DNA of 64,000 nt. Source: Mytilus edulis. Taxonomy: Eukaryota. Both the position numbers and the translations under genes were made by a program. The notes under the pieces were generated by a model. It was not told where the DNA came from and did no database searches. It saw only the letters and a list, made by a program, of their open reading frames with translations. Below, in pieces: positions 10,668 through 57,889 of this stretch (the stretch's first letter is position 1; each line of letters opens with the position of its first letter). The stretch spans positions 42,656,001-42,720,000 of the forward strand of contig NC_092355.1 in assembly GCF_963676685.1 (NCBI RefSeq). Direction: 5' to 3'.

Positions 10668-12491
10668 ATGAGTAAAATGGACAGACAATTGTCTCTTAAG
10701 ATCTTCCAGAATTTGTGTAATATTTTTGGAACAGAGGAAGTTGTGAAAACAAGACGAACGATATTTTGTGTAATAGATAGTGTTCTACAAATTACAAACT
10801 CTACAGTTGTAAGTAGTGGTAGTAGAGCAGAAGGTTTGGACCTCAAGGACAGTGATTATGATCAAATGTTTGTTGAGACACTTTTCCAAGTTTATGAAAA
10901 CAAGAGTAAAGTGTCATTCTTCGAAAATAAAATACCTATAATAATGGACATCAGTGACACAAAACCAGGATTTACAAAGCTCAAACTGAATAACCCACGA
11001 TATAAAGATTTATTGAATATAAACCAGTGGGTGAAGATGATACAAGGAGAAGCATACATTTCAAGTAAATTATTTCGGGAGCACGATTTGCAACACTTTA
11101 TGATTAGTCATGGACCAAGTCAATCTACACCAGATGGTACTTATGATTCTGTACGTTCTTTCCGATGTAAGGAATGGATAACACCTGTTCATCAATGGGT
11201 TTACAGATCCAGATCGTCATGGCCAGATCATAGATTAGTTACGTCAGTTCTAAGGTACGGCGTTTTATTTGTGCCTATTGGATGTAAAGAGTCATTGAAG
11301 GAAGATTTAGAATGGCGGATATCATTTTCTATGGCAGAGAAGCAACTTATTTTTTCCTTTTCTCATACCCAGTTGTTATGTTACGCATTAATGAAAACAA
11401 TTTTGAACGATATTATTAAGGAAATACACGGAGATCTTCTTTGTTCTTATTTTCTTAAAACTATATTGTTCTGGTTATTTGAAGAATCAAGTCCTTTAGA
11501 ATGGCATCCTGGAAATATGATTTCCTGTTTTACGAGCTGTGTAAGACGACTGATTTACTGCGTGGAATATAAAACCTGTCTCCATTATTTTATTCCTAAA
11601 AGCAACCTTTTCGAAGGCAGATTTACTGATCACCAACATAAATCTTTACTTGATACTTTAAATGCAATATACCAATCATTATGGACTTACGTTTTCCATA
11701 CGAATACATTCCAAAGGTTTAGAGAAGAACAAAGAGTTTCATACACACATTATTTGACAGCGTCTTCACTATCATGCTTTTATTACGCGAAATTAATGAC
11801 CCATTTAATGAGTTTTACATACAAACAAGTGATAATCAATTGTATAATTTATATCAAGGATAAAGAATGGTCTACATACCAGATGTCACAGTTTTCTAAC
11901 AACATGATGCAGTTACCAGATATAAACAACTATTCAGAAAGAAACAAATCGGTGTACAAACAGTACCAGATAAGTTTGAAATGCTTCAAGGCAGTTTTAT
12001 ATTCCGATGCTATTTCTGCTTGGTCATTGTTGGCATCGTTATTTTACAAACAAAAAAGATTCAACGCATGTTTAGATATTGTAAATTACACTATGTCAAA
12101 ATGCACTCCTGATAAAATCATGCTAAATGTTGGAAAGAGTTTGGCAGAACAGACTTATTTCCAGAGAGCCAAGGAGGCAGTCGGATTGTTATCAACTTCG
12201 AAACATTTAGTCATTTATTCAGTGCCATTTATAAAACCATTTTCGTTATTGCCATTAGAATTGACCCCTTTAATACTACTTACTGATTATTGTCTATGCG
12301 TTATTCCTTCTGTGGTGTATTTGAATATGTTATCGTTTTTATGTTTACATCACCTTAGAGATCATAGAGGCAAACGTACTGCACTTAGGGATCTAGAACT
12401 AACAATTCGTGAAAGATATTTTATCGTACCGCACATGCTTGATGTCCAAATTGCAAACGCTTGTTTCCGAATTGCTAACAATATGATGTAA
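10668..12491 (+). CDS. Mab-21/cGAS-like receptor (cGLR) nucleotidyltransferase with C-terminal helical (TPR-like) tail, copy 1, intact, 607 aa
   Basis: NTase motif SSGSRAEGLDLKDSDYDQM (hGS..DxD) and likely third Asp in DGTYDSV. Mab-21 motifs EWRISFSMAEKQL, SYFLKTILFW and CLHYFIP..NLF. Start placed at ATG 10668 (MSK), 9 nt after acceptor tttcAG at 10657-10658; all four paralogs share this arrangement. Confidence 0.9.
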   Translation: MSKMDRQLSLKIFQNLCNIFGTEEVVKTRRTIFCVIDSVLQITNSTVVSSGSRAEGLDLKDSDYDQMFVETLFQVYENKSKVSFFENKIPIIMDISDTKPGFTKLKLNNPRYKDLLNINQWVKMIQGEAYISSKLFREHDLQHFMISHGPSQSTPDGTYDSVRSFRCKEWITPVHQWVYRSRSSWPDHRLVTSVLRYGVLFVPIGCKESLKEDLEWRISFSMAEKQLIFSFSHTQLLCYALMKTILNDIIKEIHGDLLCSYFLKTILFWLFEESSPLEWHPGNMISCFTSCVRRLIYCVEYKTCLHYFIPKSNLFEGRFTDHQHKSLLDTLNAIYQSLWTYVFHTNTFQRFREEQRVSYTHYLTASSLSCFYYAKLMTHLMSFTYKQVIINCIIYIKDKEWSTYQMSQFSNNMMQLPDINNYSERNKSVYKQYQISLKCFKAVLYSDAISAWSLLASLFYKQKRFNACLDIVNYTMSKCTPDKIMLNVGKSLAEQTYFQRAKEAVGLLSTSKHLVIYSVPFIKPFSLLPLELTPLILLTDYCLCVIPSVVYLNMLSFLCLHHLRDHRGKRTALRDLELTIRERYFIVPHMLDVQIANACFRIANNMM

Positions 12492-14602
12492 TTTGAAATC
12501 ATTAAATTTCTGTATGTAAATTTTACATCATCATTCGTTGTATAACAATTACAAGATCCAGTATTGTGTTCTTAATGTCAAAAAATGTACGGCTGCCTTT
12601 ATAACTGTCATTGGAAGTATACATTACCAAAATGTATTGAACCTTCTGAACAGCACACTAGAATATTAATAATGTCAAATAAAGCAGATAACCGTCTGTA
12701 GCCTACAGTTCTAAAATCATTTTATATATATATGGATTTCAATAAATCTGTACTCCATATGTCTTTTTTATAAGATTTATAATACTTAACAAAGGAACAA
12801 TCACCGTGTAAGGATATGCAGTAATCATTGTCCAATGATTGTAAACATTCGAATGAGTAAGTTTCAAAATCTTACATTCATCAAGGGTTATGCATTCTCT
12901 ACGTGATTTCAATACCTGGTATTTATTACTTTTTCTACGCCTACGGGTCTTATATTTTGTAATCTAACCCTTACAATTCGTGGGTTACATTCAGTTATGC
13001 TATGGTTCAGATTCGAGAATAGGACTGCTTTGAACGCTTGGTCCTTTTCAATATATAAAGATTTTTTTATATAATATTTAAAGAACAAAGTCAATTATTA
13101 GTAGTCACTCAGTTTAAAGTAATTATATGTAATTTGATTTATTTTAATTCAATTATTTCTTTGGAACAAACTTTTTTTTAGAAGGCAAAACTATTGTTAT
13201 AAATACGAACTTGCCGTAGATGCCCGAATTTACCCCTTCGCTGAAAGTTGATGCATTGAAAATATGAAAAAATCAAGTCTCAAAAATATACATGTATCCA
13301 GTAGGTAAAATTAAGTGATAGATCAGAAATTTAAAAAGGAAGACGTCGAATATCACCAATCATCATATGTATTTTGTATATTTGGAGCTTACCTAATGAA
13401 TATTATACAAGAAACTTGTGCAATGTGCAGTGCAAACGGTATCATTCTACTGTCAGTACTATTGGGTCGATACTGTCATTCACCCAAGGCAACCGTCCGC
13501 CAAATTGTTGGCACTTATCAACTAAACAGATATATTTGTATGAAATACATGTTTATTTTGAATATACTCATTTTGTGAAAAATGTAAGTGTTCCAGAGCT
13601 CAGTTTTAAATCAATGTAGCAAAGTGGGGTAAAGACGGGTTTCTGCTATATTGAATATGTCAAATGTATGTTGATGGACACACACGTTTTATCATTCTTA
13701 CTGGCAAATGTAATTCATAACTATACGGTTTTCAAATTAGTCACAATAGACAATAATATGGCTCCAATTTAATATTCGTTGGTCTTTCTATGCTGGTTTT
13801 TGTTTGGTAGACTGTTGTTTGTCTTTTCGTCGTCATGCACTCTGTCGCTGGACTTATGTGTGGAATTATATTGCTACTTCATAGTTAGTATAGATGCGAT
13901 CTTGTACAATGTCCAAGTGATTTTTTTTATAAAATTTCAATGATTTAGAAATCAAAGATTCTATTTTGACAGGCATGCATGCATAAAGCCTCATTACAGC
14001 ACAATAAGACATAAATTCTGGAAGCACATGGGTTTTATTCGTTTCAATATTGAACTCAAATTACCGCTCTACAACAAAAATCGCGTTAATATCATTTGCA
14101 ATGATTTATTGACCGAAATACTATTCAAAGGTTGACGACTTAAAATAATTGCAGAAGGGGTAGTTTCGTTGTGCAGCATTTTTTGTCTTATCTCTAAAAT
14201 TTATTGATGCTGCAGAGAGCTAGTTTTACTTAAACTATAAATAAAGCTAGTTTTACGTTTTAAAAAGAAATGCTATCCTTCCATTCATACATACGTTGAA
14301 TAGCATTGAGGACTAGAAGATATGTACGGTAGAGCTGACGTCTTTTTTTTGTGTAAACTAAGATTTCGTTCGTACGATTTTTAATATCATTCAGTTTGGT
14401 AAAAATATTGTTTAAATGAAGACGGAAATGCTTCTATTATTGGTGTGCATTGAATATCTGTATTCTTTTATTCAGTTCTTCTGAGCTTGTCACAAGACAG
14501 TATTTTGATATATATCTACGAAATCTCTTCTGGTGTAGTTTCGCCGATATAAGAGTGTAGAATTACACGATTTAAATATCAAATTTCATGTACATCTTTT
14601 GT

Positions 14603-27970: not shown

Positions 27971-29202
27971 TACATGTATAACATAAATATTATTATAATT
28001 CAAACATACTTGTAATCAACCACTTTGTGATCAATGCTTCAGTTACATCGATGATTTTTAGTGTTAGTCCTGTACCGGTGGTAGTAAACTATGTTTTTGA
28101 TGGTATGGTGTGGCTATTATATCATATATATATATATATGTTCCTCCTCGATATGTAGCTCCTTAAGTAATTACGCATCTTTACTTTCATATTCTTAAAA
28201 CCATCTTGTTAATAGAAATACAAATGTGCTGGACAACGAACTGTCTTTTAAACAATAGAAAGACAAAATATAATATTATTTGATAAAATAGCATGACCCT
28301 CTTTTCACATAGAACCGCGAGAAATGTTATCAAAGACGGGAAGAAAATAATATTGTGTAAAAGATAAGTAATGCTATCTTCTTTATATTTTTTTTTTTCA
28401 GATTTATGATATGAGTAAAACCGAGGAAAAAAGAACTTAGGATCTCTTAAGATTTACCAGTATCTTTGTAATGTCATTGGAACGGAGGAAGTCGTGAAAA
28501 CAAGACGAAATATTTTTTGTGCAGTTGATAGTTTTTTTCAAATAAAAAAACCTACAGTTATTAGTACTGGAAGTAAAGCCGAAGGTCTGGACATCAAAGG
28601 GAGTGATTATGATCAAATGTTTGTTGATAACGACTTCCAGGTTCACGAAAACAAGAGTGAAGTAGCATCCTTCGCTTAGAAAAACATAATAATGGACATT
28701 AGTGACACGAAACCAGGATTTACGAAGCTCAAGTTGAATAACCCACGACTCATATACGTATGGGGTATAAACCATTTGGTGGAGATTGTAGAAGGAGAAG
28801 CATATATTTCAAGTAAATTATTTCGTGAGGTTGATTTGTCACATGATATGGTAATTCATGGGCCATGTAAAAGTGATTCAAAAGATAACAAATTAGTTAT
28901 GTCTGTTATAAAGCTCGGAGTTTTGTTTGTGCCTATTGGATGTAAAGGATCTTTGAATGCAGATTTCGAATGGCGGATATCATTTTCTATGGAAGAAAAG
29001 CAACTTATTTTTTTCTTTTCTCATACCCAGTTATTTTGTTACGGACTGCTGAAAATAATTTTGAAAGACATTATTCAAAAGAAACACTATGATCTTATTT
29101 GTTCATATTTTCTTAAAACTATAATGTTCTGGTTATGTGAAGAATCAAGTCCTTTAGAATGGCATCCTCGTTATATGAATTGCTGTTTTATGAACTATTT
29201 AA

Positions 29203-31561
29203 GGGCATCCGATACAGTTTCAAGGGAGTTAACTCTTGGCGCGACGTTAAGCGTTTGAATTCCTGCAAAACGTCACTTTTTTCGGGACGTAATGCGTGAA
29301 ATTTTCCGTAATTAGAAACGTAATGTGGATTTTTCGATGCTCCAATTTTTGTTTCTCCCGCATCTAACTTCTACACCATTAATATTAGTGCATTTGATTC
29401 TAACAGGATAACAGTATAATAAAGCCATAAGAAATAAAACACATTTCTGTTTCTGTGAGATCTTCAACAAAATATCGTATAGTTTGCAATCTCAAGATGA
29501 CTGACCCTTTTGGTGTTACTAATATAAACAATGCATGTCCATTATCATTTTTGATATGGGGAAGGCGCTACCTTAAATGCCAGCTTAATACCAAGACTAT
29601 GTCCTATAAATTGATTGATTGATTGTTGATTGCAGTGGCAAATATTTCATGCAAAAATTTTGACGGGACGTATTATGGTATACGTCTGTCCGTCGTAAAC
29701 ATGGTACAGCATATTATCATAATGTCATGGTTGGTTTTTTTCATGATAGTCAAACTATCTTTATTCTTTTTTGTGAACTTTTTGAGTAACTAAAACAGGG
29801 GTGTTTTTTCACAGTCCGCGCTGTATCTCAAAAACGATTTATGGTTATTGCTGAAAGCTTTACACACTTCTTAGTGATATGAATTTAAAGATCTGTATAC
29901 TTTTTGAGGATGGTTTAAATTTTATTTTTAGAGTTATTGAGTTTATAAAAAAAGAGTGGGTTTTCACATGTCGCGCCGTATCTCAGAAACTATTGAAAAT
30001 TATTGCATAAAAAAATTCACATATACTTGTTAGTTAAATTATTCTTAAGATCTGTATATTTTTTCGTGATGATTCTTAAATTCATTTTTGAGTTCTCAGT
30101 GAATTTTTATTGAGCTACAATTTGGTATCATAGAAAACATGTTGTGATATAAAACTTCCTTTTGAGCAGGAATAAGGAATGAGTCAGGATATACTTCCCA
30201 TGACGTCCTGTACCACCCCTGTGTTGTTTTAAAAACATGTATTATGGTTTTTTTATAAGACGACGAGCGTATGATGCGCTCGTAGTGCAGCTGTTTATTT
30301 TGAAATGACGGAATGACACCAAATACAATGCAATTTCCAATATAATTAATATTTACGAATTGCACAGGGCCTAACTCTTTTAAAGGATAGTTGATATGCA
30401 CTGACTTTCGAACGTGTCCATACGATATCAGTTTAATAGATTAACAACTATAGGTCACTGTACGATCTTCAACAATGAGAAAACCCATACCACATAGTCA
30501 GCTATAAAAACTGTGAATTTTAAAACTGTTAAAAAGCCTCCCAATTTTATTCAATTGTTATCATTGACCCGAATAAAAGTTTAATTTTATGAATTAAATT
30601 GTTAAATTCAAAAAAGTGATTAAAACGTGAATAGAGGAATTTAAAGGAGTATTATAATGAAACAGCATTCCACTATAAAACAACATAAAACAAAACAAAA
30701 ACATCTAGAGTTCAGCAACTGGTATAAATTAATACATACGTTAATACACGAGTGCGTACAGTACATGTACATGTATGTCAAGTTCTAAATTGCCGAGTCT
30801 TTAATTTTAAAATCTGTAAAAAGTATCAACATTCCGTAATCACTTTTCCTAAGATATTCTCACTTAGACCACAAACATAGAGATGTATTTATGATTTACA
30901 TGATTTTTTTTCCGAAAATAATATTACTTATTTATAGGTAGCTCTTTACAAGCAATATTTATACATCTGAAAAATGTCGCAGGTAATTTGCAACGATAAC
31001 GTCGAAAAAGTCTGCCATCGACGTCGTGCACTTTAGTGCTAACGTTGAGGTTACAAAAGGGGGGGCGCAATTTTTAGGATAAATCGCATTTATCATAGAA
31101 TCCAGCACGGTGACATATATCTTTTATTTGAAATTAGGAGAAAGCATGACAAAATGAAGTTTATGCAGAAAAATGATAAAAATGACATTTTTAGAAACAC
31201 TTTATTTCCATGTTTTTTGGATTAAAAAAATACCATTTTGAGCATCTGGTCCGCAAGGTCAAGCAAGGCTTAAATAGTTGTATAGACATTCGTGTAGGGA
31301 TTTATTTTTTCCGTATTGTCACTTATCACAGCTTCAAATTGAACCCGATCTTAATAATTTACTACGAAGAATATTTGCTCCAAAAATTTTATAACATTGC
31401 CTTCCTTTTTTTTACAAAATTGCAAAAATCTCCAATTTTAGCCTTAATTTTCTCGAAAACGAGCACGGTGACCTATGTTTTATTTTATAACTCACCAAGG
31501 CCTACAACATATTTCAAAACTATAAAAATGACATTATATCGAAAAACTGTATCGGATGTCC
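29203..31561. mobile_element. Non-autonomous TIR transposon with TTAA TSD (Kolobok-like) inserted in cGLR copy 2, with nested repeats
   Basis: TIRs gggcatccgatacagttt / aaactgtatcggatgtcc; TTAA at 29199-29202 and 31562-31565. Removing it restores ..NYLRRLIYCV. Confidence 0.85.
29660..30095 (+). repeat. Helentron/HINE-like fragment with ~155-bp internal tandem repeat, nested in the TIR element
   Basis: 5' gacgggacgtattatggtat..gtctgtccgtc. tttcaca(t)gtc(c)gcgc(t/c)gtatctca recurs at ~29807 and ~29962. Confidence 0.45.
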
Positions 31562-34109
31562 TTAAGACGACTGATTTACTGTGTGGCGTATAAAACCTGT
31601 CGCCATTATTTTATCCCAGAAAACAACCTTTTCGAATGCAGATTTACTGATTACCAACATAAATGTTTACTTGACTTATTAAATGATATTTACAATACGT
31701 TATGGATTTATGTTTTCCACACGGATACATTTTAAAGGTTTAGGGAAGAACATGGAATTTCATCATTACCTTATTTGACATCGTCTTCGCTATCATGTTT
31801 AACTTACCCGAAAATGCTAGGTAACTCTTTGTATTTTCTAAACAGGAAGAACATCATCACACGTTTAAGTGATACGAACAATACTGTATTATTAACATAC
31901 ATGATGTCCCTGATTTCAAAGTATTGGATGCAATCACCAGATAGAAACAACTATTCAGAAAGAAACAAATTGGTGTACAAACAATACAAGATCAGTTTAA
32001 ATTGCTTCAAGGCAGGACTTTATCCTGATTCTAATTCTGCTTGGTCATTATTGGCATCGTTATTTTATAAACATAAGAGGTTCAATGAATGTATAGATAT
32101 TGTAAACTACACTTTGTCAAAATGTACTCCGGACAAAATTATGTTCAGTTATTTACAAACCTGCTCGTGCATTTTTCATTGTTATTCAACGCAAATTTAT
32201 TTTCTAAGATACCTGGGACGATCTTATTTCACAAAGGATTTCCATTGTCTACTTATTGTACCTCGAACTTATTTACCCGATGTAGGTCTTTAAGTTGAGG
32301 TTCAATTCAATTAAAGTTAATCGGGCATGACTAATTAGATACGCCCTCTTAAAATCAGGGGGGGTCCGAAATAGGATTAGGAAAAAACACTTAGCAAAAT
32401 ACCTTAATTTACAATTTCAAGAATTTGTTTGATTCAAAGTGCTTTTGTTTGCTTAAATATCTTCGATCAATAATCAGGCGGTATTTTGTGGAAATGAATA
32501 ACCTTTTCCGAACCGGGAGATGTTGGCTGCAATAGGAATTAATTTATAAACAGTCCATATCTCATTTACTTATAGTGGCGGTTATTGATTGTAAATTCAT
32601 GACGTTTTGTATATGGCATTCGTCTACCGTGGAGAAAAAAGAGGGAAGGAGGGCTTAACTTACGAGTTCGATCATTATGGTTCAAATCTATTCTATTACG
32701 GCATACGTTTTACCTCTAGCGAACGCTCTGCCATATTGTAAAAAGTGCCACTCTAAATTTGAAAATATTTGCTTCAAATTGATCCACTTTAAATCTAGTC
32801 GTGAATATGCATGACATATTTGCCACTGGACACAAAGGAGCAATAAATTATTCAGCTTCATTTAGTGATTTATAATCATTTGTCCTCAGTTGATTACAGT
32901 TTCAAACAGTTTTCCAATTTTTATATATTTCATTTTTATTTACATTTGAATTCTTATGCGTAAATCTTAACATTTCTTCCATCATTTTTCTCTTTGCATT
33001 TAATCTTTTTTTTTTTAATATTAAAAAAAACGTTGTCGTAGTACACATCAGGGGTTACATTGTATAATTTCCAGCAAAACTAATAGGGGAGGGACTAGAA
33101 CAGAAAAACAATCTTCATTGAGTGGCAATAACTCATATATTGAAGCGTACTATGACGGCTCTCTCGTCTAGGTGACAACATTTGCTGTTTCAAGTTTATT
33201 TATATCTCAGACTGGTATAATAGTTGTCATAAAAGCAACAACAACAAAAAAAATGATAATGATGAAAACAAGGTTGACAACAATTTATAAAAAAGATTCA
33301 ACTTATTTTGAGCGTTTCATTTTTTTTTTATTATGTTGTCTTGCTGATCGGTTTTGTTATATATTTTTTTTCATCTACTATTGTTCTAGCAAAAGTCACA
33401 AAAAATGTTGTGAAAATCAGCCATGCGACTTATTTAAAAAGATTAAGCTGACCTTTCTTGTTGTTTATACATTTCAATCATTCAACTCGTGCGTAGATCG
33501 TCTTTCCCTCTTATGTTTTTTTAAGGTAAAGATAGCGTGGAATTCTCACTGCACAAGGCATCTGATATATATTCCTATTATATTTTGATCGGACAAAGCT
33601 GCGTACTTGCATAACCAATAAGCCAAACGAACGCACCCATTTAGCAAGGGTATACTGTGGGACGGAGAGGCCTAGAGATGTCAATATTTCTATACCCAAG
33701 CGAATCTTGTTTTTGAATAAAAGGAGATAAAGGTATACATGAATGCGACAGCAACCCAAAGACACAGATAAATAAAAATATTTAGAGTCAACATTCGGTC
33801 TTTTTTTATAGAACATTCCGTATACAGAATAATAAGCTCAAAACCGCGCCATGACTAAATAATAGTTATACGGAGTTAATTCAATAATATTTTCCGTCAA
33901 ATATTATATATCCGAAAAGGCACATTTGATTTAATATTATTTACCGTCAAAGATAATAATCCCAACAATCACAAGTAATTGCCATTTTTTAAATTTGATT
34001 GGTAAAAATTTAAGAAGTTTTAATATATGCGAGTAAAATAAAAACACTTCACTGTATAATAAAACGGTAAAATAAATAATGATAATGGATGACGACCAGC
34101 GGCGAATAA

Positions 34110-34430: not shown

Positions 34431-36700
34431 GCGGTAGTGATCGGTTGTACAGAATATCATACCAAAAACTAAAGTACAATACACAATACAGTTTCACAGA
34501 ATTCTCACAGTTACTAAAGTGAGCTAAAAGTATCTAACCTTCATTGGATGCGTGAAATGATATTGTAAACTACACGTTAACATGGATGATCGACTTCATG
34601 GTAGATTTTATGGATCAAATTAAAAACTCTTGCACCTATTATTTAAGTGGTCCAAATATTGCCTGCTGTTTCAAGTCTTAATTTCTGTCCTTATTCAATA
34701 TACCCTCATTTTCTAGTGGTATTTTAAAGTTTCACGTCCAACCTCACTGTCGACCTCCTTTTGTACGACCTACATGTACCTATTGTATTTAAAATTTATG
34801 TGTTATAGTCATTAACAGGCGTGAAATATTTGCTACTGGACGTAAAGCAAACAACAATCAATCAATTTAATTAATTTCTCTGTTACAGTACTTAGCACAC
34901 AAAGACACGATCTTGTAAAATGCTATAATTACAATTTCCATTTAAATTTTTATGTTGTTTTCTTTTATCTTTTTTTTCGGGGGGGGGGGTCTCTCCAGTT
35001 TATTACATAACTGACTGCTTATTCAAAAGTTTTAAATATTTTTTTTACTATTGTTCTTATCTAATGTTTAAATACGATTTATAACATATGATTTTTTTTG
35101 TCAGGCAAGGATAAAACTAAGAAAGATAAAAGTTTTTTTCAGGTGTTTTTGCTTCATTTAGACATAAAAAGGGAATAACGGACGACTAAATGAAAGTGTT
35201 TGTTTTCATATAATATATTGAACTTGCGAATATATCTCACCCAACACGTTTTGATCGGGACAGTGAAACCAAGTTTAATACGGTTTTATTCATTGAAGTT
35301 TGCATGCATAGTTCTTATTTAAAAAATAACACAAATAAAGCAAGATCTATTAATTAATTGGACTGAATAAACAAAACTATTTATTTTGCATTCGCATGTA
35401 TCTTAATGTAGGAAAATTACCAAATCAGAAACAAAAGGAACATTTACCGGATGAATATTGTGAAGGACTTTATGCATCTAGGACTGTCCGATTAGAAGTT
35501 CTTAAACAAGCTGTTTAAAAAGTTAATTGTTGGAAGAGTTTACTTACTATTTTCTAAGGTCTGATCATTACGATTCTATTTCATGATTACTGACAGATAA
35601 AAACATCAAGTATATATAGCATGAAGTTGTTGGGCATAATATTCATTGGTCAGTTATAAATGAGGTCTGTATGAGGGTTTTGATTGCCTGATTTATTAAA
35701 TAAGAAATCGTTATTTTGAAAAGTTGGCTAAAAAAATATAAATTTAACTCCTAATTTTGTAAAACTATAATTTTGGTGTTATTTCGATGCTATTTTTTTT
35801 TTACATAAATAAATTATTATATGATGTAATTCCATTAAATCGGTCCGTTTTCATGTCAAGTTGGTAACTGTTAATTGTACATATCAGTCTGAGTACTGTT
35901 TAACTATCATTTCAGTTTAACATATTTAGACTCGTCCAGTTCAGGGGAATTAGGTTTCTGCAAGTGCTTTTTATGTACTTTTCTTAAATTTTTGACGGTT
36001 TGTAAGTCAGTAAAAGTTCAATGATTAAGTTAATATTGACATTAAAAGACCTCCTTACAAAAAGGCCTCTTCAAATCCCCTCGCCCTTCGGGCTCGGGGA
36101 TCTGAACACCCCTTTTTGGCAGCATACAATCGCAAACGCTTGTCTCCAAATTGCTAAAAGTATGATGTAAAAAGTAAAATCACAAAAATACTGAACTCCG
36201 AGGAAAATTCAAAACTGAAAGTCCCTAATCAATTGGCAAAATCAACAAATCAAACACATCAAACGAAAAGACAATAATTAGTTATTGTTACATTGGTTAT
36301 AACCGGTATATGTCATTTATGATTCAGTGTATAACACATAAATATTGCAAGTGTTCGTTGCCAAAAATGCAAATGACTGCAAATGTTAATATTCGACACT
36401 AAGTAGGACCTCCATAATGATCAACGGTCGTATTTGGTGATCGGATCTACATCACTGCTAGTTTTCAATTGACATGATTCCAAACACAGTCGTAAACCTA
36501 TACATATAAATGTATGTATAAAACTGTAATATGTATTAGGGAATATATGCTAATAATTTAATTTTGGATGTAACGTGTCTTCTGATTGGCTGCGTTATTT
36601 TGTTATGAGCCCATAGACATAATTTAGTCATGTGACCGTGACGTCATCAACGTTTTTTCATGGTTTTCTACGGTTTAAAATGGAATTTAGAATTAAATTA

Positions 36701-42987: not shown

Positions 42988-43651
42988 GGTAGCACTCCAC
43001 AGTTAGAAAATAAAATTAAAAATGAGCCCCAAAATGTTTTATCATCTCCTTTTCCTGGATTTCTAATACATTAACCTAACTGTTTGTGTTGTACATGTGC
43101 ATATGTATGTAATCAGTATCTTCCATAGATTTGATTTTCAAAAGTTAAAAGGGTGAAAATTAATTCCTTTCATGTGTATCCATGGCAACATTCTGCATTT
43201 ATTTACCATAAAATATTGCAAAAAAGGGGGGTGAACATGTCACATATCCCCCCAAAATTTGGATCAAACTAGAATTTCAATGCCTTTGAGTGATACCTTT
43301 TTAGAAACTGTTTTCATAAATCTTCCTTTTGATCAAATAAAAAATGGGTGTCTTTCGCCTCATTTTTTCGTAAAATCCAATCACAAAGTTCGTGCGATAA
43401 AAAGTTGGAAAATAACATTACAATAATTGCCGGACCAATGTATGGTATGGACATGCAAATACGGACTGTCATACAGAAAAAAGCCTTTATTACATACATT
43501 ACATAACCTTGTTGTTCATATAAACCCAATACAAAGGCTATTTTAATACTCAGCTATCTAAAAATGAATTTTATTGCACACTAGCTCTCATATTTAAAAA
43601 ATCTACAGGGGCCAAAATGCGAAACTACACACCTAACTGTGGAGTGCTACC
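42988..43651. mobile_element. MITE with 19-bp TIR ggtagcactccacagttag
   Basis: Perfect inverted match between 42988-43006 and 43633-43651. Confidence 0.8.
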
Positions 43652-43662
43652 TTTGCAATGGT

Positions 43663-46050
43663 CAGTCGTCCCGCTATACCACACGACCACCTGGGCTGCT
43701 GCAGTGCAGGCGATTTGGTGTCATGATATCACAGTAGCATGGGTTCGAATCCCGGCGAGGGAAGAACCAAAAATTTGCGAAAGCACATTTACAGATCTAA
43801 AATTGTTGGGTTGATGTTTAGACTAGTTGTATATACATTATGTACACAGCCATGTATCACCATCATTGATGGCGATCCGATGGATACATCTGTTGTAGAG
43901 TTGTCACTGACTCGGACATACTTATAAATATAATTATTTTCTGTGACTGTATATTACATTAATTTGTAGGATCCTTTACTATAGATAATTTAGCTGATCT
44001 GTAACAATAACATCTTCATGCTTTATATATCATGTACTGTAGTACGTCGCTAGATTAAAACTGACGAGGAAAGGTAACACACGGCCAGCGAAAGCTCTAT
44101 TATTGTAGAGCCCAGGTGGTCGTGTGGTCTAGCGGGACGGCTGCAGTGCAGGCGATTTGGTGTCACGATATCACAGTAGCATGGGTTCGAATCCCGGCGA
44201 GGGAAGAACCAAAAACTTGCGAAAGCAAATTTACAGATCTAACATTGTTGGTTTGATGTTTAGACGAGTTGTATATACATTATGTACACAGCCATGTATC
44301 ACCATCATTGGTGGCGATCCGATGGATACATCTGTTGTAGAGTTGTCACTGACTCAGACGTACTTATAAATATAATTATTTTCTGTGACTGTATATTACA
44401 TTAATTTGTAGGATCATTTACTATAGATAATTTAGCTGATCTGTAACAATAACATCTTCATGCCTTATATATCATCTACTGTAGTACGCCGCTAGATTAA
44501 AACTGACGAGGAAAGGTAACACACGGCCAGCGAAAGCTCTATTATTGTAGAGCCCAGGTGGTCCTGTGGTCTAGCGGGACGGCTGCAGTGCAGGCGATTT
44601 GGTGTCACGATATCACAGTAGCATGGGTTCGAATCCCGGCGAGGGAAGAACCAAAAATTTGCGAAAGCAAATTTACAGATCTAACATTGTTGAATTGATG
44701 TTTAGACGAGTTGTATATACATTATGTACACAGCCATGTATCACCATCATTGATGGCGATCCGATGGATACATCTGTTGTAGAGTTGTCACTGACTCAGA
44801 CGTACTTATAAATATAATTATTTTCTGTGACTGTATATTACATTAATTTGTAGGATACTTTACTTTAGATAATTTAGCCGATCTGTAACAATAACATCTT
44901 CATGCCTTATATATCATGTACTGTAGTACGCTGCTAGATTAAAACTGACGAGGAAAGGTAACACATGGCCAGCGAAAGCTCTATTAGTTTAGAGCCCAGG
45001 TGGTCGTGTGGTCTAGCGGGACGGCTGCAGTGCAGGCGATTTGGTGTCACGATATCACAGTAGCATGGGTTCGAATCCCGGCGAGGGAAGAACCAAAAAT
45101 TTGCGAAAGCAAATTTACAGATCTAACATTGTTGAATTGATGTTTAGACGAGTTGTATATACATTATGTACACAGCCATGTATCACCATCATTGATGGCG
45201 ATCCGATGGATACATCTGTTGTAGAGTTGTCACTGCCTCAGACGTACGTATATACTTAAAAATATAATTATTTTCTGTGACTGTATCTTACATTAATTTG
45301 TAGGATCCTTTACTATAGATAATTTAGCTGATCTGTAACAATAACATCTTCATGCCTTATATATCATGTACTGCAGTACGCCGCTAGATTAAAACTGACG
45401 TGGAAAGGTAACACACGGCCAGCGAAAGCTCTTTTTTTGAGAGCCCAGGTGGTCGTGTGGTCTAGCGGGACGGCTGCAGTGCAGGCGATTTGGTGTCACG
45501 ATATCACAGTAGCATGGGTTCGAATCCCGGCGAGGGAAGAACCAAAAATTTGCGAAAGCAAATTTACAGATCTAACATTGTTGGGTTGATGTTTAGACGA
45601 GTTGTATATACATTATGTACACAGCCATGTATCACCATCATTGATGGCGATCCGATGGATACATCTGTTGTAGGGTTGTCACTGACTCAGACGTACTTAA
45701 AAATATAATTATTTTCTGTGACTGTATCTTACATTAATTTGTAGGATCCTTTACTATAGATAATTTAGCTGATCTGTAACAATAACATCTTCATGCCTTA
45801 TATATCATGTACTGCAGTACGCCGCTAGATTAAAACTGACGTGGAAAGGTAACACACGGCCAGCGAAAGCTCTTTTTTTTGAGAGCCCAGGTGGTCGTGT
45901 GGTCTAGCGGGACGGCTGCAGTGCAGGCGATTTGGTGTCACGATATCACAGTAGCATGGGTTCGAATCCCGGCGAGGGAAGAACCAAAAATTTGCGAAAG
46001 CAAATTTACAGATCTAACATTGTTGGGTTGATGTTTAGACGAGTTGTATA
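43663..46050 (+). repeat. Tandem array of ~5.4 tRNA-headed 442-bp units
   Basis: Unit heads (agagcccaggtgg) at 44107, 44549, 44991, 45440 and 45882 (periods 442, 442, 449, 442). The first unit starts with an inverted head at 43663-43697. The last unit is cut ~165 nt in, at (TA)n. Confidence 0.97.
44107..44205 (+). ncRNA. tRNA-derived head (Pol III A and B boxes) of the array unit, repeated in each unit; not a functional tRNA
   Basis: A-box-like TGGTCGTGTGGTCTAG and perfect B box GGTTCGAATCC, separated by a long variable-arm-like hairpin (Leu/Ser type). Acceptor stem is poor. Confidence 0.75.
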
Positions 46051-46084
46051 TATATATATATATACATATAACTCGTCTAAACAT

Positions 46085-47852
46085 ATATATATAGTTATAG
46101 TGTCTAAAAATAGCAACAATCAACATTCAATCTATCTAGGTGTGGATCAGTTTGTAAATAAACTAATGCAGTTACTAAATTAAATTATATAAGTGTCTAA
46201 GAATGTAACTTTAACACACTAATGAGTGTTATAAAATTAGTTGTTATTTTTATATATTATTCACGCAATATTTCGCTAAACAAATTAGCTTCATCGGGCG
46301 TGTGCATCTATCTAGGTTAAATCGGATGCATGACAAAAAATATCTTTGTAGCTTGAGCTACACAAAGTTTGTGTAAAAGTTTAACAGATTGATTGATGGT
46401 CTATATAAAACATATTTTTGCCGTTTATTGTACATAATAATTTTTGAATCTGAACAAATAGTTGTTGTAGTTAAATAGAATGAAATTTATGATTTATTCC
46501 TTTGGTTTTGGGTAGAACTGTTTTTCATCCCTCTCATTAAGTCCGTCAGGTTCAAGAGTACGTAGCTGATGCATCCAGAACCTTTCTCTCTGTTTTCTTT
46601 TTTCGGTGTCCCAATTTTGGTTTACCTCAATTATTTGAAAGGTGATATTATCAAAAGTATGTCCTGTTCTTAAGAGGTGTCTCGTAATTGGACAGTTTCT
46701 TTCTTTTGTATAGAACGACCGGTGATTGTTAAGTCTGATGTTGAAATTAGTTTCTGTTTCACCAACATACTGCAGCTTGCAAGTTCCGCAAGTAATAATA
46801 TAAATACTATTTTCCGTTTTGCAATTAGATGTAACATAGATGTTGTATCGCTGCTTTGTTACTGTGCTGCTGAAAGAGTGGTCAGTGTCAGCGGCTTTAC
46901 AGCACTTACAATTGCTCCTACCGCATTGTTTGTAACACCCAAATTTAGAAGTTTCTTGTTTCTTTACTTTTGATGTCACAAGTATGTCTTTGAGATTTTT
47001 GGGTCTGCGATAGGCAATAATAGGAGGTGATGGAAAAATTTCTTTTAAGGAAGAGTCATTTTCGATAAGACGCCAGTGCTTTCGGATAGTAGGTGAAATG
47101 TTTGTCAAATCGGGATGGAAGGTTACAACAAACGGAATTCTATCTTCACGGGTCGTCTTATCTTTGTATTCCATGAGGCTAGCTCGATCTTTTTCTTGGG
47201 CTTTATCAAAAGCGTCTGTGATGTTTTTGGTTTTGTATCCTCTTGATTTCAGCTGTGTTTTAGTTGTCCCAAACGATAGTTAAGTTTGGATTCCGAGGAG
47301 CAAATTCGCTTTAGTCTGATGGCTTGACTGTAATGTATACTCCTGGAGCAGTGTTTCGGGTGACAACTTTTTGGAGAAAGGAACTGGTGTTTATCAGTTT
47401 TCTTTGTGTGAAGGTCAGTTGTCATGACCCCGTTTTTTACAAATGTGGTGGTGTCGAGAAAAGCAATTTTCTCGCTTGAAAATTCAGATGTAAATTTAAT
47501 TGAGTGATGGAACTGATTACATTGATCTAAGAAATCTTGCAAATGTTCTGCAGTATCGTTCAATTTCATGTCAATGTCATCAATAAAACGGAGCTATGAC
47601 AAGGGTTTGTATGGCACACTCAAAAGGATGCGTTCTTCGAGATCCCCCATAAAAATGTTGGCAAAAGAAGGTGCCATTTTTGTTCCCATACTAGTTCCGT
47701 CAATCTGTAAAAAGTGCTTGTCGTTGAAAACAAAGTTGTTATTTTCAAGCACTAGCTTCAGCAATTGAACTAGGCAGTCAGTTTGGGAAAGTTTATCCTT
47801 TCGAGTATTCCACACTTTTTCACACGCGGCTATTCCTTCATCTTTTGGAATA
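46085..47852 (-). mobile_element. 5'-truncated Penelope-like element (RT + Cys-rich linker + C-terminal GIY-YIG), Neptune-type, disrupted
   Basis: RT motifs QIDGTSMGTKMAPSFANIFM, LRFIDD, IAFLD, TDKHQFL..SCHPKH. Linker CYKQCGRSNCKCC. Endonuclease SIYIITCGTCKLQYVGET..RLNNHR..RERFWMHQLRTLEPDGLN. One stop near 47594 and a frameshift near 47250. Confidence 0.92.
46262..46302 (-). ncRNA. Minimal type I hammerhead ribozyme motif downstream of the PLE ORF (U4C core variant)
   Basis: Minus strand reads CACGC-CCGATGA-A-GCTAA-TTTGT-TTAGC-GAAA-TA-TT-GCGTG. Stem I CACGC/GCGTG, stem II GCTAA/TTAGC, palindromic short stem III. Confidence 0.75.
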
Positions 47853-48361
47853 ATTTTAAAACGTGTTCGCTGATCATTTTTGCATTCTATACAGATATTC
47901 ACCTATTTTGAAAAAAGAGTTTTTAAGTAATATATGAGAAAATTAAAAGCACAGTTGTACTATTTTGTTACCATTTTCATTTAAAGTAGTTCAACATGTT
48001 CAACGAGATTCTATGCAAAACTTATCAAATTCTTCTACATAGTCTATTTACTGTACTTTGAACTTCCGAAATGTTCAATCTACATGTATTTGATTTGAGA
48101 ATGATCATTGGTAGCATGCAGATTTCCGATATAAGCACTTTAAAACCTACAGTATTTATATTTTGTTGCAAAAACATCTCCTTTAGATACAAACTGGACA
48201 CATGATGATATTCAAAACAATATAGACACCCTTTGATATCGAAAGGTAATGAAACTGGACCTATCAATAGAATGCAGGTGAATGGTAGTAGGACACGAAC
48301 AAAATTAAGTATGAAAGAGCTGAAGATAAACTTGATTCTTTATCTATTACAGATTTTTAAA

Positions 48362-50203
48362 ATGAGTGATACGGAAAGAGAACTGTCTCGAAAGATTTAC
48401 CAGTATTTATGTAATATCGTTGGAACAGAAGAAGTTGTAAAAGCCAGAAGAAATATATTTCGTGTAATGGACAGGGTTTTACACATTCCAAACCTAACAC
48501 AAATAAGTAGTGGGAGTAAAGCTGAAGGTTTACACCTCAAAGGCAGTGATTATGATGTAATGATTGTTTCTAAAAGAATTCTCGTTTACGAGAATAAGAA
48601 TGTGTCATCTTTTACACCACTGTCCATGGATTTAATCATGGACAACAGTGATACAAAACCAGGATTTACAAAGCTTAAATTTGAATGCATTTCAAACGCA
48701 TACCTTTTGCCTACTAACGCATGGGTTGAGATTGTGGAAGGAGAAGCCTATTTTTCAAGTAAATTATTTCGGGAGCATAAATGTCCAGAGAATATGATTA
48801 TTCATGGACCATGTCGATCTTCCCTAGATGATACTTTTGATTCTGCACGTTGTTTCTTGTGTGAGACATGGATTAAACCTGCTCATAAATGGATAATAAG
48901 ATCGAGACCGTATTGGCCTGATTGCAAACTAGTAAAGGCTATTGTAAAGCGTGGTGTTTTGTTTGTTCCTATTGGTTGTAAAGGGTCAAAAAATGAAGAT
49001 TTGGAATGGCGTATATCGTTTTCTATGGCAGAGAAGCAACTTATTTTTTCCTTTTCGCATACCCAGTTATTATGTTACGCTTTGCTGAAAATAATTCTGA
49101 AAGACATAATCAAGATAAAACATAGTGATCTAGTTTGTTCATACTTTCTTAAAACTATTATGTTCTGGTTATGCGAAGAATCAAATCCTTTCGAATGGCA
49201 TTCTGGGAATATGATTCCGTGTTTCGTAAAATGTCTGAGGCGACTGATATACTGCGTAGAATATAAAACCTGTCTTCACTATTTTATTCCAGATAACAAC
49301 TTTTTCGAATGTCGATTTACTGAGAATCAACATAGGACTTTACTTGATACGTTGCATGATATAGATAATTCATTATGGACTTACGTTTTCCATACAGCTA
49401 CATTTTACAATTTTAGATTAGAACAAAGAGCTTCACAATCACTTTATTTGAAAGCATCTGCATTGTCCTGCTTGGCATTTCCTAAAGGTTTTCATATCAA
49501 TGTGAAGTATAGCAAAATCAAACAAATACTCGCTCGTTTAATTAAATTAAAAAATACAGAACTAAGAACGTACATGATGTCACTGATTTCAAACTACTGG
49601 ATGCAATCACAAGACTACACCAACTTTATAGATAGAAACAAATCTGTGTACAAGCAATACCAAATAAGTTTATGTTGTTTTAAGGCAGGGCTACATTGCG
49701 ATGTTAGTTCAACATGGTTGTTGTTAGCATCTTTATTTTATAAATTCAAGAGATTTAACGAATGTAAATATATTTTAAACTATTGTCTGTCAAAATAAAC
49801 GCCGGATAAAATTATATTAAGTTTCAAAAACACTATGTCAGAACAGACTTTGTTCCAGAAATACAATGACGCGTTTGGATTGCTGTTAACTTGTAAACAT
49901 TTAATCATTAATAAATTGTCGTTTAACAAGCCACATAATTTATTACCTGTAGAATTGATACCTTCAACTCAACAAGATGAACGTGACATAATACGAGTAT
50001 TTCCGTCTGTTTTGTATTTGCATATGTTATCATTTTTGTGTTGTCATCATCTTGGAGATAACAGAGGCAAACTAAATGCACTCCGAGATCTACAACTAAC
50101 CATTCGAGATAGGTACTTTATCTCCACAAACGAGACGCATTTCCAAATTGCATACAGTTGTCTGAAAATTGCTAAAAGTAAGATGTTGTTGGTAAATGCC
50201 TAA
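48362..50203 (+). pseudogene. cGLR paralog copy 3; one in-frame TAA at 49796-49798 gives a 478-aa product with intact catalytic core
   Basis: SSGSKAEGLHLKGSDYDVM, DDTFDSA, EWRISFSMAEKQL. SK*TPDK stands where paralogs have SKCTPDK, and the frame continues open to 50203. Acceptor ttacAG at 48351-48352. Confidence 0.88.
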
Positions 50204-50479: not shown

Positions 50480-51695
50480 TGGACTTTACAGAGCTAATGT
50501 CTAAGAAGATTGAACTCGTACATACTGAAGTATAACTTTGTCTTGAGAGATTTTCTACGACAAAACAAGAAGACACCAACACATTGTTAGAATTAAAGAA
50601 AACTTTAAATTTGTGTTACTTGAAAAACAGTCTTTATTCAGATGAATATATAAAATTTCTAAAGAACACTAAAACAGAAGAAAGTCTCCAAGTGTATGAG
50701 GAGCATGACATTGAAGATGCCAAGTACAAAAACATTTTTGAACGAGCACTTCTACAAATGAAAGTGTCGGACAAGGAAGAATCTAAATTAACACATATAT
50801 CTGAAGCACATTCTAGAACTTCTTCAAACTCCAGCTCAGTTACAACCAGAAAGCATGCAAAGGCAGAAGCAGCCCAGGCTAAGTTTGAATTTGCCATGAA
50901 GGAGGCAGATTAACAGAAACAGAAGGCTTACATGGAAGAGCAAGAAAAAGTTCCAAGTGCAAAGACATTTACCTAAAAGGTTGAGCTGGAAGCTGAATTA
51001 GAACTGCTTTACTATAAGAAGGAAGCGACGGCCACTACTGCAGAGGCTGATGCGCTTGAACACGACCAAAATGTTTGTGATAGTAAAAAGTCTGATCTCC
51101 TTCAATCAAAAATCGTTTTTGAACGAACTATTCAATATGTAGAACAGCAACTTCTTCAAGAAAAAGCTGTAAAATTACCCCAGTCGATTATATTGTACTA
51201 TGTGACCCGTTCACAAATCAGACACCAGGTGATGCATTCCATGAACATTCACATATGCCACCACCAAAACCGTCTCGCCAAAAATATGATGTGACAAGTA
51301 TAAGTGCCGGTGGTAATGATCACGATATAAATATACAAGTTCAAGAACATGCATTGAATCCTAATGCACCTCAATTTCAACCTGACATACGCACACATCA
51401 GAAAGCACCTCTATTCAACCTGACATAAGCACATTTCAGAACGCACCTAAATTTCGTCCTGAAATAAGCAGACATCAGAATATTGCTACAGATCTCACAC
51501 GATTTCTTCTAAAGAAAGATTTGCTGTTATCAAGATTAACAACGTACAGTGATAGACCAGAAATGTACGCTGTATGGAAGGTTAGATTCAAAAACAGATC
51601 AAGCGAACTTTCTGTTACGGCAATGGAAGAATTAGATCTTATGGTGAAATGGTTAGGTCCTTAATTTACACGGCATGCAAACAGTATTAGATCAT
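50480..51695 (+). mobile_element. BEL/Pao LTR retrotransposon gag fragment, decayed
   Basis: Ser-rich plus coiled-coil SSNSSS..AKAEAAQAKFEF. Downstream DLTRFLLKKDLLLSRLTTYSDRPEMYAVWK..EELDLMVKWLGP resembles Pao gag. Confidence 0.7.
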
Positions 51696-54600: not shown

Positions 54601-56221
54601 GTTTTGGCATTTTTAGGTAAAAAAAAATCATTTGTAAATTGAGTGAAACAGTCTGATCAATACAAGTTTTTCAAACAAAAGATTAATATAAACATGAAAA
54701 AAACTTGTAGATTCAAATACAAATATTTTTTGTTATTGTTCCTCAGAACCAAACCCATTATCTTCCTATAATTCATCTAAAATATGAATCTATGTTATAT
54801 ACAAATTATCAAAAATTTGTACCGGTACCGGGCTTGTGGTTTTGAACGCGAGACGCCCGTTTCGTGTTAAAAGCCACATCAGTGATGCTTCAGTCTAAAA
54901 GTTCACAGACCAAATATTTAACGAGGTTGACACTAGGATAAAAAAAAAAAAGAATAAAGACCGAGTAAAGTACAAAATTGACGAGTATTGACGACCCAAA
55001 TGCCAAAACAAATATCGCTTATACTTATATTTGTTCTTTATAATATCGCATTCTATATTTTTTTACAATATACAACTATTCACCAGGGACCAATGGGCAT
55101 TTGATGTTACCTTCTATAAGTCAACACATGACTTTCAACAATGATCAAAGCCAATACGTAAAAAGTAAAATCACAAAAAAACTGAACTCAGAGGAAAATC
55201 TAATCATAAAGTCCATATTCACATGGCAAAATCAAATGAAAAAAACACATCAAAAACGAACGGCCAAGAACTGTTATTTGATAGTCATCTATAAAACGCA
55301 CCGACATTACACATGTTAACAGCTCATAAAAAAAACCAACGAACTGGATGTATGATTATACGAAAAATCAATAAGAATGAGTGCAATTTGTTACAAACAC
55401 TGACGTAGATGTACCTGACTAAAAATGACACAATAAGTACACGCAAAGTAGATACAATTTATGACCAAACATCAACATCAAAAGTAAAACCTAAACTTTC
55501 TGCATTGTCAAAATATACAGGAAGTAGGAAAATAGATGCATAATGATACATTGTATTGAATATTACGTGTCAATAGGTCTTAGTTTGGACTTTGTCTCAA
55601 TCATCCTTTGTAATCAGATGAAAATCATGCATTAACACACAGCATAGACTGTTTTTCACTCTTTTCATGTTCTTGTCTTCAGAATTTACAAGGCAACTTG
55701 TTTTACTTCATAGAAACCAAACATATTTGGTAAGACAATTTGATTCCGTTCGGATTTGAATAAGTCGTTGTTAACATCCAGCTTTCATTAGATCGTTGAT
55801 TTTCCCGTTTGAATGGTTTTACATCAGTAATTTTGGGGCCCTTTATAGCTTGTTGTTCGATGTGAGCCAAGGCTCCGTGTTGAGGGCCGTACATTGACCT
55901 ATAATGGTTTACTTTTATAAATTGTTATTTGGATGGAGAGTTGTCTCATAGGCATTCACACCACATCTTCCTATATCTATTCATCTAAGCAAGCTTTATT
56001 AGTTCCTTAAAACTACTATGTTTATATGTTTTTCCAAAAACATTGTGTATACAGACAAAAAGCCGTTTTTGAAAAGCTAGAAAGACAAGCATGTATGTTG
56101 CCAAATAAAACAAAATTTTACCTTGTTCCCATACAAACCTGATGACTGTAAGACATGAACAAAAATGTGTAAAATATGAGTAAGATACATGTTATTTCTT
56201 TGTTTATTGCAGATTTGTAAA

Positions 56222-57889
56222 ATGAGTGAAATGAACAGAGAACTGTCACTCAATTTTTACCAGTATTTATGTAATATTATTGGAACAGAGGAAGTTGTGA
56301 AGACTGGAAGAAAGATATTCTGTACATTAGATAGTGTAGTACGAATTTCAAACTTTACAGTTATAGGTAGTGGGAGTAAAGCAGAAGGTTTAGATCTCAG
56401 GGGCAGTGATTATGATCAAATGTTTGTTTTGAAAGATTTCCAAGTTTACGAGAACACGAGGCAAATTTCATCCTTAACAAATAAAGCACCTATAATTATG
56501 GACATCGGTGACACAAAGTCAGGGTTTACAAAGCTCAAGGTGTATAACATACCATATATATACCGGCGTCATATAAACCAGATCACGACGTTTGTAAATG
56601 GAGAAACTTACTTTTCGAGCAAATTAATTCGGGAGCTTTATATGCCAAAAGGTATGATTGTTCATGGACCTTGTCAATCTCTCCCAGATGATTCTTATGA
56701 TATGGCACGTTGTTTCCAGTGTAAGGAATGGATAACACCTGCTTGTCAATGGGTTTACAGATCACGATCGTCATGGCCAGACCATAGATTAGTAATGTCT
56801 GCTATAAAACAAGGTGTTTTATTTGTACCTATTGGTTGCAGAGGATCGGTGAATGATGATTTGGAATGGCGAATATCGTTTTTTATGGCAGAGAAGCAAC
56901 TTATTTATTCCTTTTCTCATACCCAGTTATTATGTTACGCATTAATGAAAATTATTTTGAAAGATATTTTAAAGAAAAAACATGATAATCTTATTTGCTC
57001 TTATTTTATTAAGACTATAATGTTATGGCTATTTGAAGAGTCAAGTCTTTTCGAATGGCATCATCGGAATATGATTTCCTGTTTTAAAAGCTGTTTCAAA
57101 CGACTGATTTACTGCGTGGAATATCAAGTCTGTCTCCATTATTTTATTCCAGAGAACAACCTTTTCGAAGGCTGATTTACTGATTACCAACATAAATGTC
57201 TGCTTGACTCTTTAAATGAGATATACAATTCTTTATGGACCTATGTTTTCCATACGGCTACATTTTAAAGGTTTGGAGAAGAACAAAGAATTTCATCATT
57301 ACCTTATTTAAAAGCGTCTTCACTACCATGCTTACCATACATGTGTGATGTGCTTCGTCTTTCGTGCTTAAGAAACAAATCATAACTCGTATTGTTAGAA
57401 CACACGATAAAGAACTCTCTACACAAATGATGTCACTGTTTTCCATCAATTGGATGCAATTACCAGATGGTAACAATGTTAGAGCAAGTAATTAATCTGT
57501 GTACAAACAATACAAGATACGTTTACATTGCTTCAAGGCAGGACTGTATTACAATGCTATTTCCGCTTGGTCATTGTTAGCATCGTTACTTTATAAGCAT
57601 AAAAGGTCCAACAAATGTATAGATATTGTAAACTATACTTTGTCAAAATGTACTCCTGATAAAATTATGTTAAGTTTCACAATAGTTTGTCGGAACAGAC
57701 TTATTTTCAGAAAGTTTCAGTAGTAGTCGGATTTCCATTAGCATGCAAACATTTTGTCATTAACATTTTGTTGTTTACGAAACCATATTATTTATTACCA
57801 GTAGAATTGAGCCTTTTAATTAAGCATACTATCAAAGCTCTTTTCGAAGTTCAAACATATGTCTCCAAATTGCCAAAAGTATGATATAA
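56222..57889 (+). pseudogene. cGLR paralog copy 4; open for 317 codons, then stops, frameshifts and a distal deletion
   Basis: GSGSKAEGLDLRGSDYDQM and DDSYDMA. TGA at 57173 (NLFEG*FT), TAA at 57266, frameshifted tail ending ctccaaattgccaaaagtatgatataa. Acceptor ttgcAG at 56211-56212. Confidence 0.88.

What the first reader, a model, noticed from the sequence alone, without database searches (positions are those of the whole stretch)
10668..57889. Tandem cGLR innate-immune cluster in birth-and-death turnover
Four same-strand paralogs are present, one intact and three damaged to different degrees, amid heavy TE load. Known: cGLRs make cyclic dinucleotides for STING-type signalling and are expanded in bivalves. 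The ~250-aa helical tail after the Mab-21 core (AWSLLASLFYKQKRFNACLDIV, TPR-like) is absent from vertebrate cGAS and may be a sensor or autoinhibitory module. Ligand and product cannot be told from the sequence.
Basis: partly seen in the sequence, partly recalled or inferred. Interest (0 to 1): 0.7.

Follow-up and report, generated by a model that had tools for sequence, protein, structure and literature searches.

The report
Mussel cGAS-like immune receptor gene array
This is part of a tandem array of mussel cGAS-like genes, one intact and three broken here, that likely make immune alarm molecules; the family is already published, though what triggers these long-tailed members is unknown.

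Summary
Observation confirmed. The window holds four same-strand Mab-21/cGLR paralogs: copy 1 intact (607 aa), copy 2 shattered, copy 3 with one stop, copy 4 with stops and frameshifts. They are 4 of 12 loci in a ~390-kb cluster (6 intact). Copies 2 and 3 are dead twins of intact neighbours from a block duplication. Copy 1 keeps the GS loop and the D63/D65/D160 triad and is predicted to fold like cGAS/cGLR (Z 25); the ~250-aa tail is a TPR-like solenoid (Z about 10-11). Bivalve cGLR expansion, TPR-fused cGLRs and Mab-21 presence/absence variation in Mytilus are already published, so this is a new member of a known kind. New detail: 28 paralogs show diversifying selection that survives a rate-variation control. 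It falls on the NTase N-lobe and the tail alike, and the cores are mostly neutral to acidic (median pI 6.3). This favours a variable, probably non-nucleic-acid ligand, but does not single out the tail as the sensor. Activity, ligand, product and autoinhibition are untested.

The parts
10668..12491 (+). Copy 1: intact cGLR, 607 aa in one coding exon; NTase + helical core about aa 1-350 (G51 S52, D63, D65, D160), TPR-like tail about aa 361-607
10640..10658 (+). Polypyrimidine tract and CAG splice acceptor 9 nt before the ATG; seen in all four copies (12-15 nt before the ATG in some neighbours)
   Evidence: sequence; contig of run X16 has 66 unlaid letters 5' of 10657
11748..12488 (+). TPR-like helical tail of copy 1, with a predicted ~65-aa alpha/beta insert (aa ~479-547) between helix pairs
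   Evidence: AF2 pLDDT 92; best Z 10-11 mostly to TPR proteins; homologs P0069/P0081 hit Pfam TPR_1/TPR_2
28411..29202 (+). Copy 2, 5' part (pseudogene): frameshifting insertions, TAG at 28677, 90-nt deletion; 96% identical to intact neighbour g8
29203..31561 (.). 2.36-kb DNA-transposon-like insertion in copy 2: terminal inverted arms (22 nt including TTAA, 95% complementary), TTAA duplicated; Kolobok-like by recalled terminus rule
31562..32152 (+). Copy 2, 3' part: TAA at 31733, breaks off at about aa 490; remnant of gene end at 36117-36467
48362..50203 (+). Copy 3: full-length reading frame with one TAA at 49796-49798 (twin g9 has TTG); triad intact
56222..57889 (+). Copy 4 (pseudogene): stops at 57173, 57266, 57493; frameshifts near 57340-57378 and 57675; 3' deletion
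   Evidence: run X10 contig 57143-57668 identical

Best explanation
These are tandem-duplicated mussel cGLR genes, and the intact copy likely encodes a ligand-gated cyclic-dinucleotide synthase that would signal through STING. Shown: intact catalytic triad, predicted cGAS-type fold, TPR-like tail, DNA-level block duplication with loss of twins, and diversifying selection on the N-lobe and tail. Inferred: the enzyme rests inactive with the tail packed on the core; a microbial ligand, more likely a protein or other non-nucleic-acid molecule than dsDNA/dsRNA, binds a variable surface formed by N-lobe and tail residues, orders the GS loop and starts synthesis (2'3'-cGAMP is the commonest cGLR product, so the default guess). 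Each paralog would carry a different specificity, and copies are born and lost as pathogens change.
For: Triad D63 and D65 in 93 of 93 aligned homologs, D/E160 in 93 of 93, G51 92 of 93, S52 93 of 93. AF2 pLDDT 94, pTM 0.92 over the whole chain. Top structural matches Cv-cGLR1 Z 25.3 (rmsd 3.5, 298 aligned), MB21D2 25.1, cGAS 24.6, over residues 1-359. Exon-level STING_LBD hits at 5 places in the genome. 12 loci, 6 intact; collinear duplicated block, copy 3 vs g9 92.6% over 2579 nt; copy 3 vs g9 dN/dS 0.32, so the stop is recent. M8 vs M8a 2dL 155, omega 2.06 on 7.6% of sites; holds with segment-specific trees and away from gaps, F61 and site-rate variation (2dL 18.4, omega 1.95). Core pI median 6.3 in 29 paralogs, spine-helix net charge median 0, against pI above 8.5 for nucleic-acid sensors in Li et al.. 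Contigs of 3 of 3 guessed-RNA runs (2 studies) cover the copy 1 ORF with empty flanks. All 59 tail homologs with 100 or more upstream residues carry the core.
Against: No activity, ligand or product data. Copy 1 itself is mildly basic (pI 8.87 full length, 7.98 core), and residues 346-445 are basic in 28 of 28 paralogs (+1 to +12), so nucleic-acid binding is not excluded; Li et al. computed pI on full sequences, where the median here is 8.0. Selected sites are not enriched in the tail, and I could not place them in 3D. Null simulations with rate variation gave 2dL about 51 (2 of 2), so most of the plain M8 signal can be artefactual; gene conversion was only partly controlled. The raw-read RNA run X24 (about 6% read) had no reads on the ORF. 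Motif deviates slightly from Li et al.'s pattern (S instead of [QT] before GS; about 92 rather than 50-90 residues to the third acid). Three similar-looking long bivalve cGLRs screened by Li et al. are not among their 15 selected actives (likeness judged by eye).
Confidence: 0.6

Rival explanations
1. Conventional nucleic-acid-sensing cGLRs: dsRNA or dsDNA binds the back-face groove, helped by the basic start of the tail, and the TPR part only scaffolds or localises.
For: 9 of 15 characterised cGLRs respond to dsDNA or dsRNA (Li et al.); copy 1 pI 8.87; residues 346-445 basic in all 28 paralogs.
Against: Neutral spine helix and acidic N-lobe (median -4.5); no Zn-thumb insertion in the alignment to mouse cGAS; many hypervariable sites are hard to explain with an invariant ligand, although escape from viral antagonists could explain them.
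Confidence: 0.22
2. The tail is purely an autoinhibitory clamp or guard module, released by proteolysis or by a pathogen effector; copy 3's stop after aa 478 would then give a shortened, possibly deregulated enzyme rather than a dead one.
For: pTM 0.92 suggests fixed packing of tail on core; basic tail start versus acidic N-lobe; copy 3 keeps the whole core.
Against: Tail carries 7 of the 12 sites that stay selected under rate variation, more than a passive clamp would need; no data on copy 3 expression.
Confidence: 0.1
3. Non-immune or non-CDN nucleotidyltransferases (Mab21L/MB21D2/MiD-like), using the fold for another signal or none.
For: MB21D2 (orphan) ties for best structural match, Z 25.1; MAB21L1 20.4, MiD49 19.2; look-alike bivalve proteins not among Li et al.'s actives.
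Against: Invariant triad, large expansion, pseudogene turnover, positive selection and enrichment among dispensable genes fit immune receptors better than developmental genes.
Confidence: 0.08

Closest known systems
Metazoan cGLRs of Li et al. 2023 (PMC9980059), including TPR-fused bivalve members
   Same: Mab-21 NTase + helical bundle, GS loop and acidic triad; C-terminal TPR signal in bivalve entries (Table S2); extreme bivalve expansion (M. galloprovincialis 218 cGLR, 9 STING; Table S5)
   Different: No Mytilus protein was in their 140-enzyme screen; the passages and tables I read give no structure, selection analysis or function for the tail
Sp-cGLR2 (712-aa construct, 2'3'-cGAMP, unknown ligand) and Cv-cGLR2 (631 aa, product unknown)
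   Same: Long cGLRs active in vitro; Sp-cGLR2 shares core motifs by eye and has a predicted negative ligand surface
   Different: Their C-termini were cut off in the table, so homology to this tail was not tested
Vertebrate cGAS; oyster Cv-cGLR1/Cg-cGLR1 (dsDNA, 2'3'-cUA)
   Same: Fold of residues 1-350 (Z 24-25, 18-20% identity)
   Different: No TPR-like tail; cGAS has a Zn-thumb insertion that copy 1 lacks; DNA-sensing members are basic
Mytilus dispensable gene families (Gerdol et al. 2020, PMC7653742)
   Same: Mab-21 domain counted 436 times and enriched among dispensable genes, FDR 3e-13 (Table S52)
   Different: That work does not treat Mab-21 in its main text (0 occurrences)

Membership tests
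cGLR (Li et al. 2023 criteria) | G[S/G] activation loop and [E/D]h[E/D]...[E/D] catalytic triad | tested here: met
   G51 S52, D63, D65, D160; conserved in 92-93 of 93 homologs and 28 of 28 paralogs; spacing about 92, just over the stated 50-90; S in place of [QT]
cGLR (Li et al. 2023 criteria) | [quoted passage not shown] | tested here: met
   Pfam Mab-21 27.3 bits and Mab-21_C 63.3 bits, cut-off 24.1
cGLR (Li et al. 2023 criteria) | Predicted structural homology to cGLR/CD-NTase | tested here: met
   Foldseek E 1.9e-12 to Sp-cGLR1; Z 25.3 to Cv-cGLR1
cGLR (functional) | Ligand-activated cyclic dinucleotide synthesis read by STING | not testable with these tools
   Only exon-level STING_LBD hits in the genome
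Nucleic-acid-sensing cGLR / cGAS | High pI (above 8.5) and basic back-face groove | tested here: inconclusive
   Copy 1 pI 8.87 full, 7.98 core; paralog medians 8.0 full, 6.3 core; no surface map available
Vertebrate cGAS | Zn-thumb insertion | tested here: not met
   Gap against the Cys-rich insertion of mouse cGAS in the alignment
TPR repeat domain | 34-aa TPR sequence repeats above Pfam cut-off | tested here: inconclusive
   No TPR hit in copy 1 at E 0.1; homologs P0069 and P0081 pass TPR_1 and TPR_2 for one repeat
TPR repeat domain | Alpha-solenoid of antiparallel helix pairs | tested here: inconclusive
   Top rows mostly TPR proteins, best Z 10.9 (rmsd 3.6, 160 aligned), below the ~13 advised for helical repeats; no Foldseek hit at E 0.001. 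TPR-like, not canonical
Birth-and-death multigene family | Tandem duplicates, pseudogenes beside intact copies, recent duplicate pairs | tested here: met
   6 of 12 local loci broken; block duplication; 17 of 72 scored genome matches contain stops

The most novel reading that the evidence does not exclude
TPR-tailed cGLRs are a diversified, NLR-like repertoire of intracellular sensors in mussels that recognise pathogen proteins, not nucleic acids, on a hypervariable surface shared by the NTase N-lobe (aa 117, 139-142, 163) and the tail (aa 377, 489, 520, 538-545, 590-591), and convert this into cyclic-dinucleotide signals.
Probability: 0.3. Interest if true: 0.75.

Novelty: new member of a known kind. 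Interest (0 to 1): 0.33.

Why it matters
What activates the many orphan cGLRs is an open question that Li et al. name as their main limitation. This cluster gives single-coding-exon paralogs with intact active sites, natural dead twins and a short list of rapidly evolving sites, so domain-swap and ligand screens can be designed directly. The locus itself is ordinary for a mussel genome.

Tried and rejected
Core-tail complex prediction: no answer (score 0.00, alignments not used), no evidence either way. Run search: no holder on record as RNA. Presence/absence: run X9 holds copy 1 but has almost no cover over copies 3-4 at 96% likeness, and X11's contig at 48150-49054 is g9-like (25 of 28 listed letters equal g9); lack of cover in contigs does not show absence, so PAV at this locus is not claimed. 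Assembly error as the source of the lesions: rejected for copy 4's three stops (X10 contig 57143-57668 has 0 differences); for copy 3's stop no difference was listed in X10, but the spanning contig was not shown. Retrogene origin: rejected, since a splice acceptor precedes every ATG and intergenic blocks are co-duplicated. Tail as the main selected region: not supported. Tail as a free-standing or mobile domain: not seen (84 of 143 hits were too short upstream to judge). Foldseek on the tail gave nothing at E 0.001. Rfam on 43000-48200 gave only low-complexity miRNA hits below cut-off. Earlier scan notes: none found. Literature searches returned no paper on this clade's tail or selection, but cover only open-access texts; Li et al.'s supplementary figure PDF (Fig. 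S3 screen) could not be read.
Full report
Observation. The window (G000:C12:42656001-42720000) holds four same-strand paralogs. Copy 1 (10668-12491) is an intact 607-aa frame. Copy 2 (28411-32152) has frameshifting insertions, a TAG, a 90-nt deletion that removes the third catalytic Asp, a 2.36-kb insertion with inverted arms and a duplicated TTAA, a TAA, and a replaced 3' end. Copy 3 (48362-50203) has one TAA at 49796. Copy 4 (56222-57889) has three stops and frameshifts. A contig of run X10, not flagged as a possible source, is identical across copy 4's stops, so these are not assembly errors. Homologs are named Mytilus proteins, best full-length identity 64%; no record identical to copy 1 was among the 120 listed.

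Context. In 464 kb around the window there are 12 loci over 42.52-42.92 Mb, 6 intact and 6 broken. One neighbour equals P0007, which NCBI names a cGAS-like receptor. Collinear intergenic matches show a duplicated block: an upstream fragment pairs with copy 4, copy 2 with intact g8 (96-98%), copy 3 with intact g9 (92.6% over 2579 nt). Copy 3 vs g9 has dN/dS 0.32, with 22 non-synonymous and 19 synonymous changes on copy 3's branch against 25 and 26 on g9's (6 unassigned), so copy 3 was under constraint until recently. Genome-wide, 72 of 1054 candidates were scored; further clusters lie on C12 at 52.4-53.6 and 69.1-69.5 Mb, and 17 of the 72 contain stops. Every copy has a splice acceptor just before the ATG, so these are DNA-level duplicates with one coding exon.

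Protein. Pfam Mab-21 and Mab-21_C pass their cut-offs. G51-S52, D63, D65 and D/E160 are kept in 92-93 of 93 full-length homologs (93 of 121 proteins aligned, chosen by length). The AF2 model (pLDDT 94, pTM 0.92) matches Cv-cGLR1, MB21D2 and cGAS at Z 24-25 over residues 1-359. The Zn-thumb of cGAS is absent. The tail folded alone (pLDDT 92) is a helical solenoid with an alpha/beta insert; its best matches are mostly TPR proteins at Z 10-11, below the level that is secure for helical repeats, and Foldseek finds nothing significant. Some homologs pass Pfam TPR cut-offs. Of 143 new tail homologs, 59 have 100 or more upstream residues and all 59 carry the core; Atlas neighbours by features are eukaryotic, commonest Mollusca where recorded (on P0007).

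Selection and charge. On 28 intact paralogs (30 fetched; two broken ones left out) my own codon-model code gave M8 over M8a 2dL 155, omega 2.06 for 7.6% of sites. It held with segment-specific trees, away from gaps and with F61. Plain null simulations gave 2dL 0-1 (2 of 2), but nulls with site-rate variation gave about 51 (2 of 2). With rate variation modelled the signal shrank to 2dL 18.4, omega 1.95, with 12 sites above 0.9: five in the N-lobe (117, 139, 140, 142, 163) and seven in the tail. The helical core (231-345) has none. Selected sites are not enriched in the tail. Core pI has median 6.3 (29 sequences); the spine helix is neutral, the N-lobe acidic and residues 346-445 basic in all 28. 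Copy 1 is at the basic end.

Expression. Contigs of three guessed-RNA runs (two studies) cover the copy 1 ORF with empty flanks, and one has 66 unlaid letters at the acceptor, as a spliced transcript would; the one raw-read RNA run (about 6% read) has no reads there. Induction by infection was not tested.

Mechanism. Best reading (0.6): a ligand-gated cyclic-dinucleotide synthase feeding STING (exon-level STING hits), with a variable ligand surface shared by N-lobe and tail and probably a non-nucleic-acid ligand. Fold, triad, turnover and selection are computed results; resting inhibition, ligand, product and signalling are inferred. Rivals: nucleic-acid sensing (0.22), pure autoinhibitory or guard tail (0.1), non-immune NTase (0.08).

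What is known. Li et al. 2023 (PMC9980059; I read the abstract, Results parts 1-2 of 3, Discussion, the bioinformatics methods and rows of Tables S1-S5) report the bivalve radiation, TPR-fused cGLRs, 218 cGLRs and 9 STINGs in M. galloprovincialis, and propose non-nucleic-acid ligands for acidic cGLRs. No Mytilus protein was screened; three long bivalve proteins that resemble this clade by eye are not among their 15 selected actives. Gerdol et al. 2020 (PMC7653742; passages and one row of Table S52) show Mab-21 enriched among dispensable mussel genes. In PMC10514466 and 10.1101/2025.09.04.674280 I ran term searches only, with nothing on this clade. Other papers were seen as search listings only.

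Verdict. Real, correctly described, and a new member of a known kind. The selection map and charge pattern are modest additions that make the orphan-ligand question easier to test. Interest 0.33.

Noticed in passing
window 43698-46052 and 46494-47902 (-): 442-bp unit in 5.3 tandem copies beside a Penelope-like RT/GIY-YIG remnant; each unit has a tRNA-type B-box, and three match a loose hammerhead-core pattern, but folding and Rfam did not support a ribozyme. Retrozyme or pseudo-LTR reading is recalled, untested.
   Followed up: partly
window 29203-31561: TTAA-flanked element with GG...CC termini; a related copy (83-90%) lies at about C12:42.911-42.914 Mb, next to the last cGLR of the cluster.
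   Followed up: partly
P0080: An 824-aa Mytilus homolog with an N-terminal TIR domain before the cGLR core and TPR-like tail; real fusion or gene-model artefact not checked.
   Followed up: no
L036:6721-9174: 818-aa open frame with a signal-peptide-like start about 8.5 kb after locus g11; no Pfam hit at E 0.01.
   Followed up: partly
L054:6267-7616: B-box/NHL (TRIM-like) open frame about 30 kb upstream of the cluster.
   Followed up: no
window 57674: A contig of run X14 carries one extra T at copy 4's frameshift: an allele without that lesion or another paralog.
   Followed up: no
window 48150-49054: Copy 3 differs from g9 at only 32 positions here (about 96.5%) versus 92.6% overall, hinting at partial gene conversion.
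   Followed up: no
window 5552-6558 (+), 62717-64000 (-), 50536-51425 (+): Retroelement remnants: RT/RNase H, zf-RVT non-LTR RT, and a fragmented gag-like stretch with no Pfam hit (BEL/Pao-like from recall).
   Followed up: no
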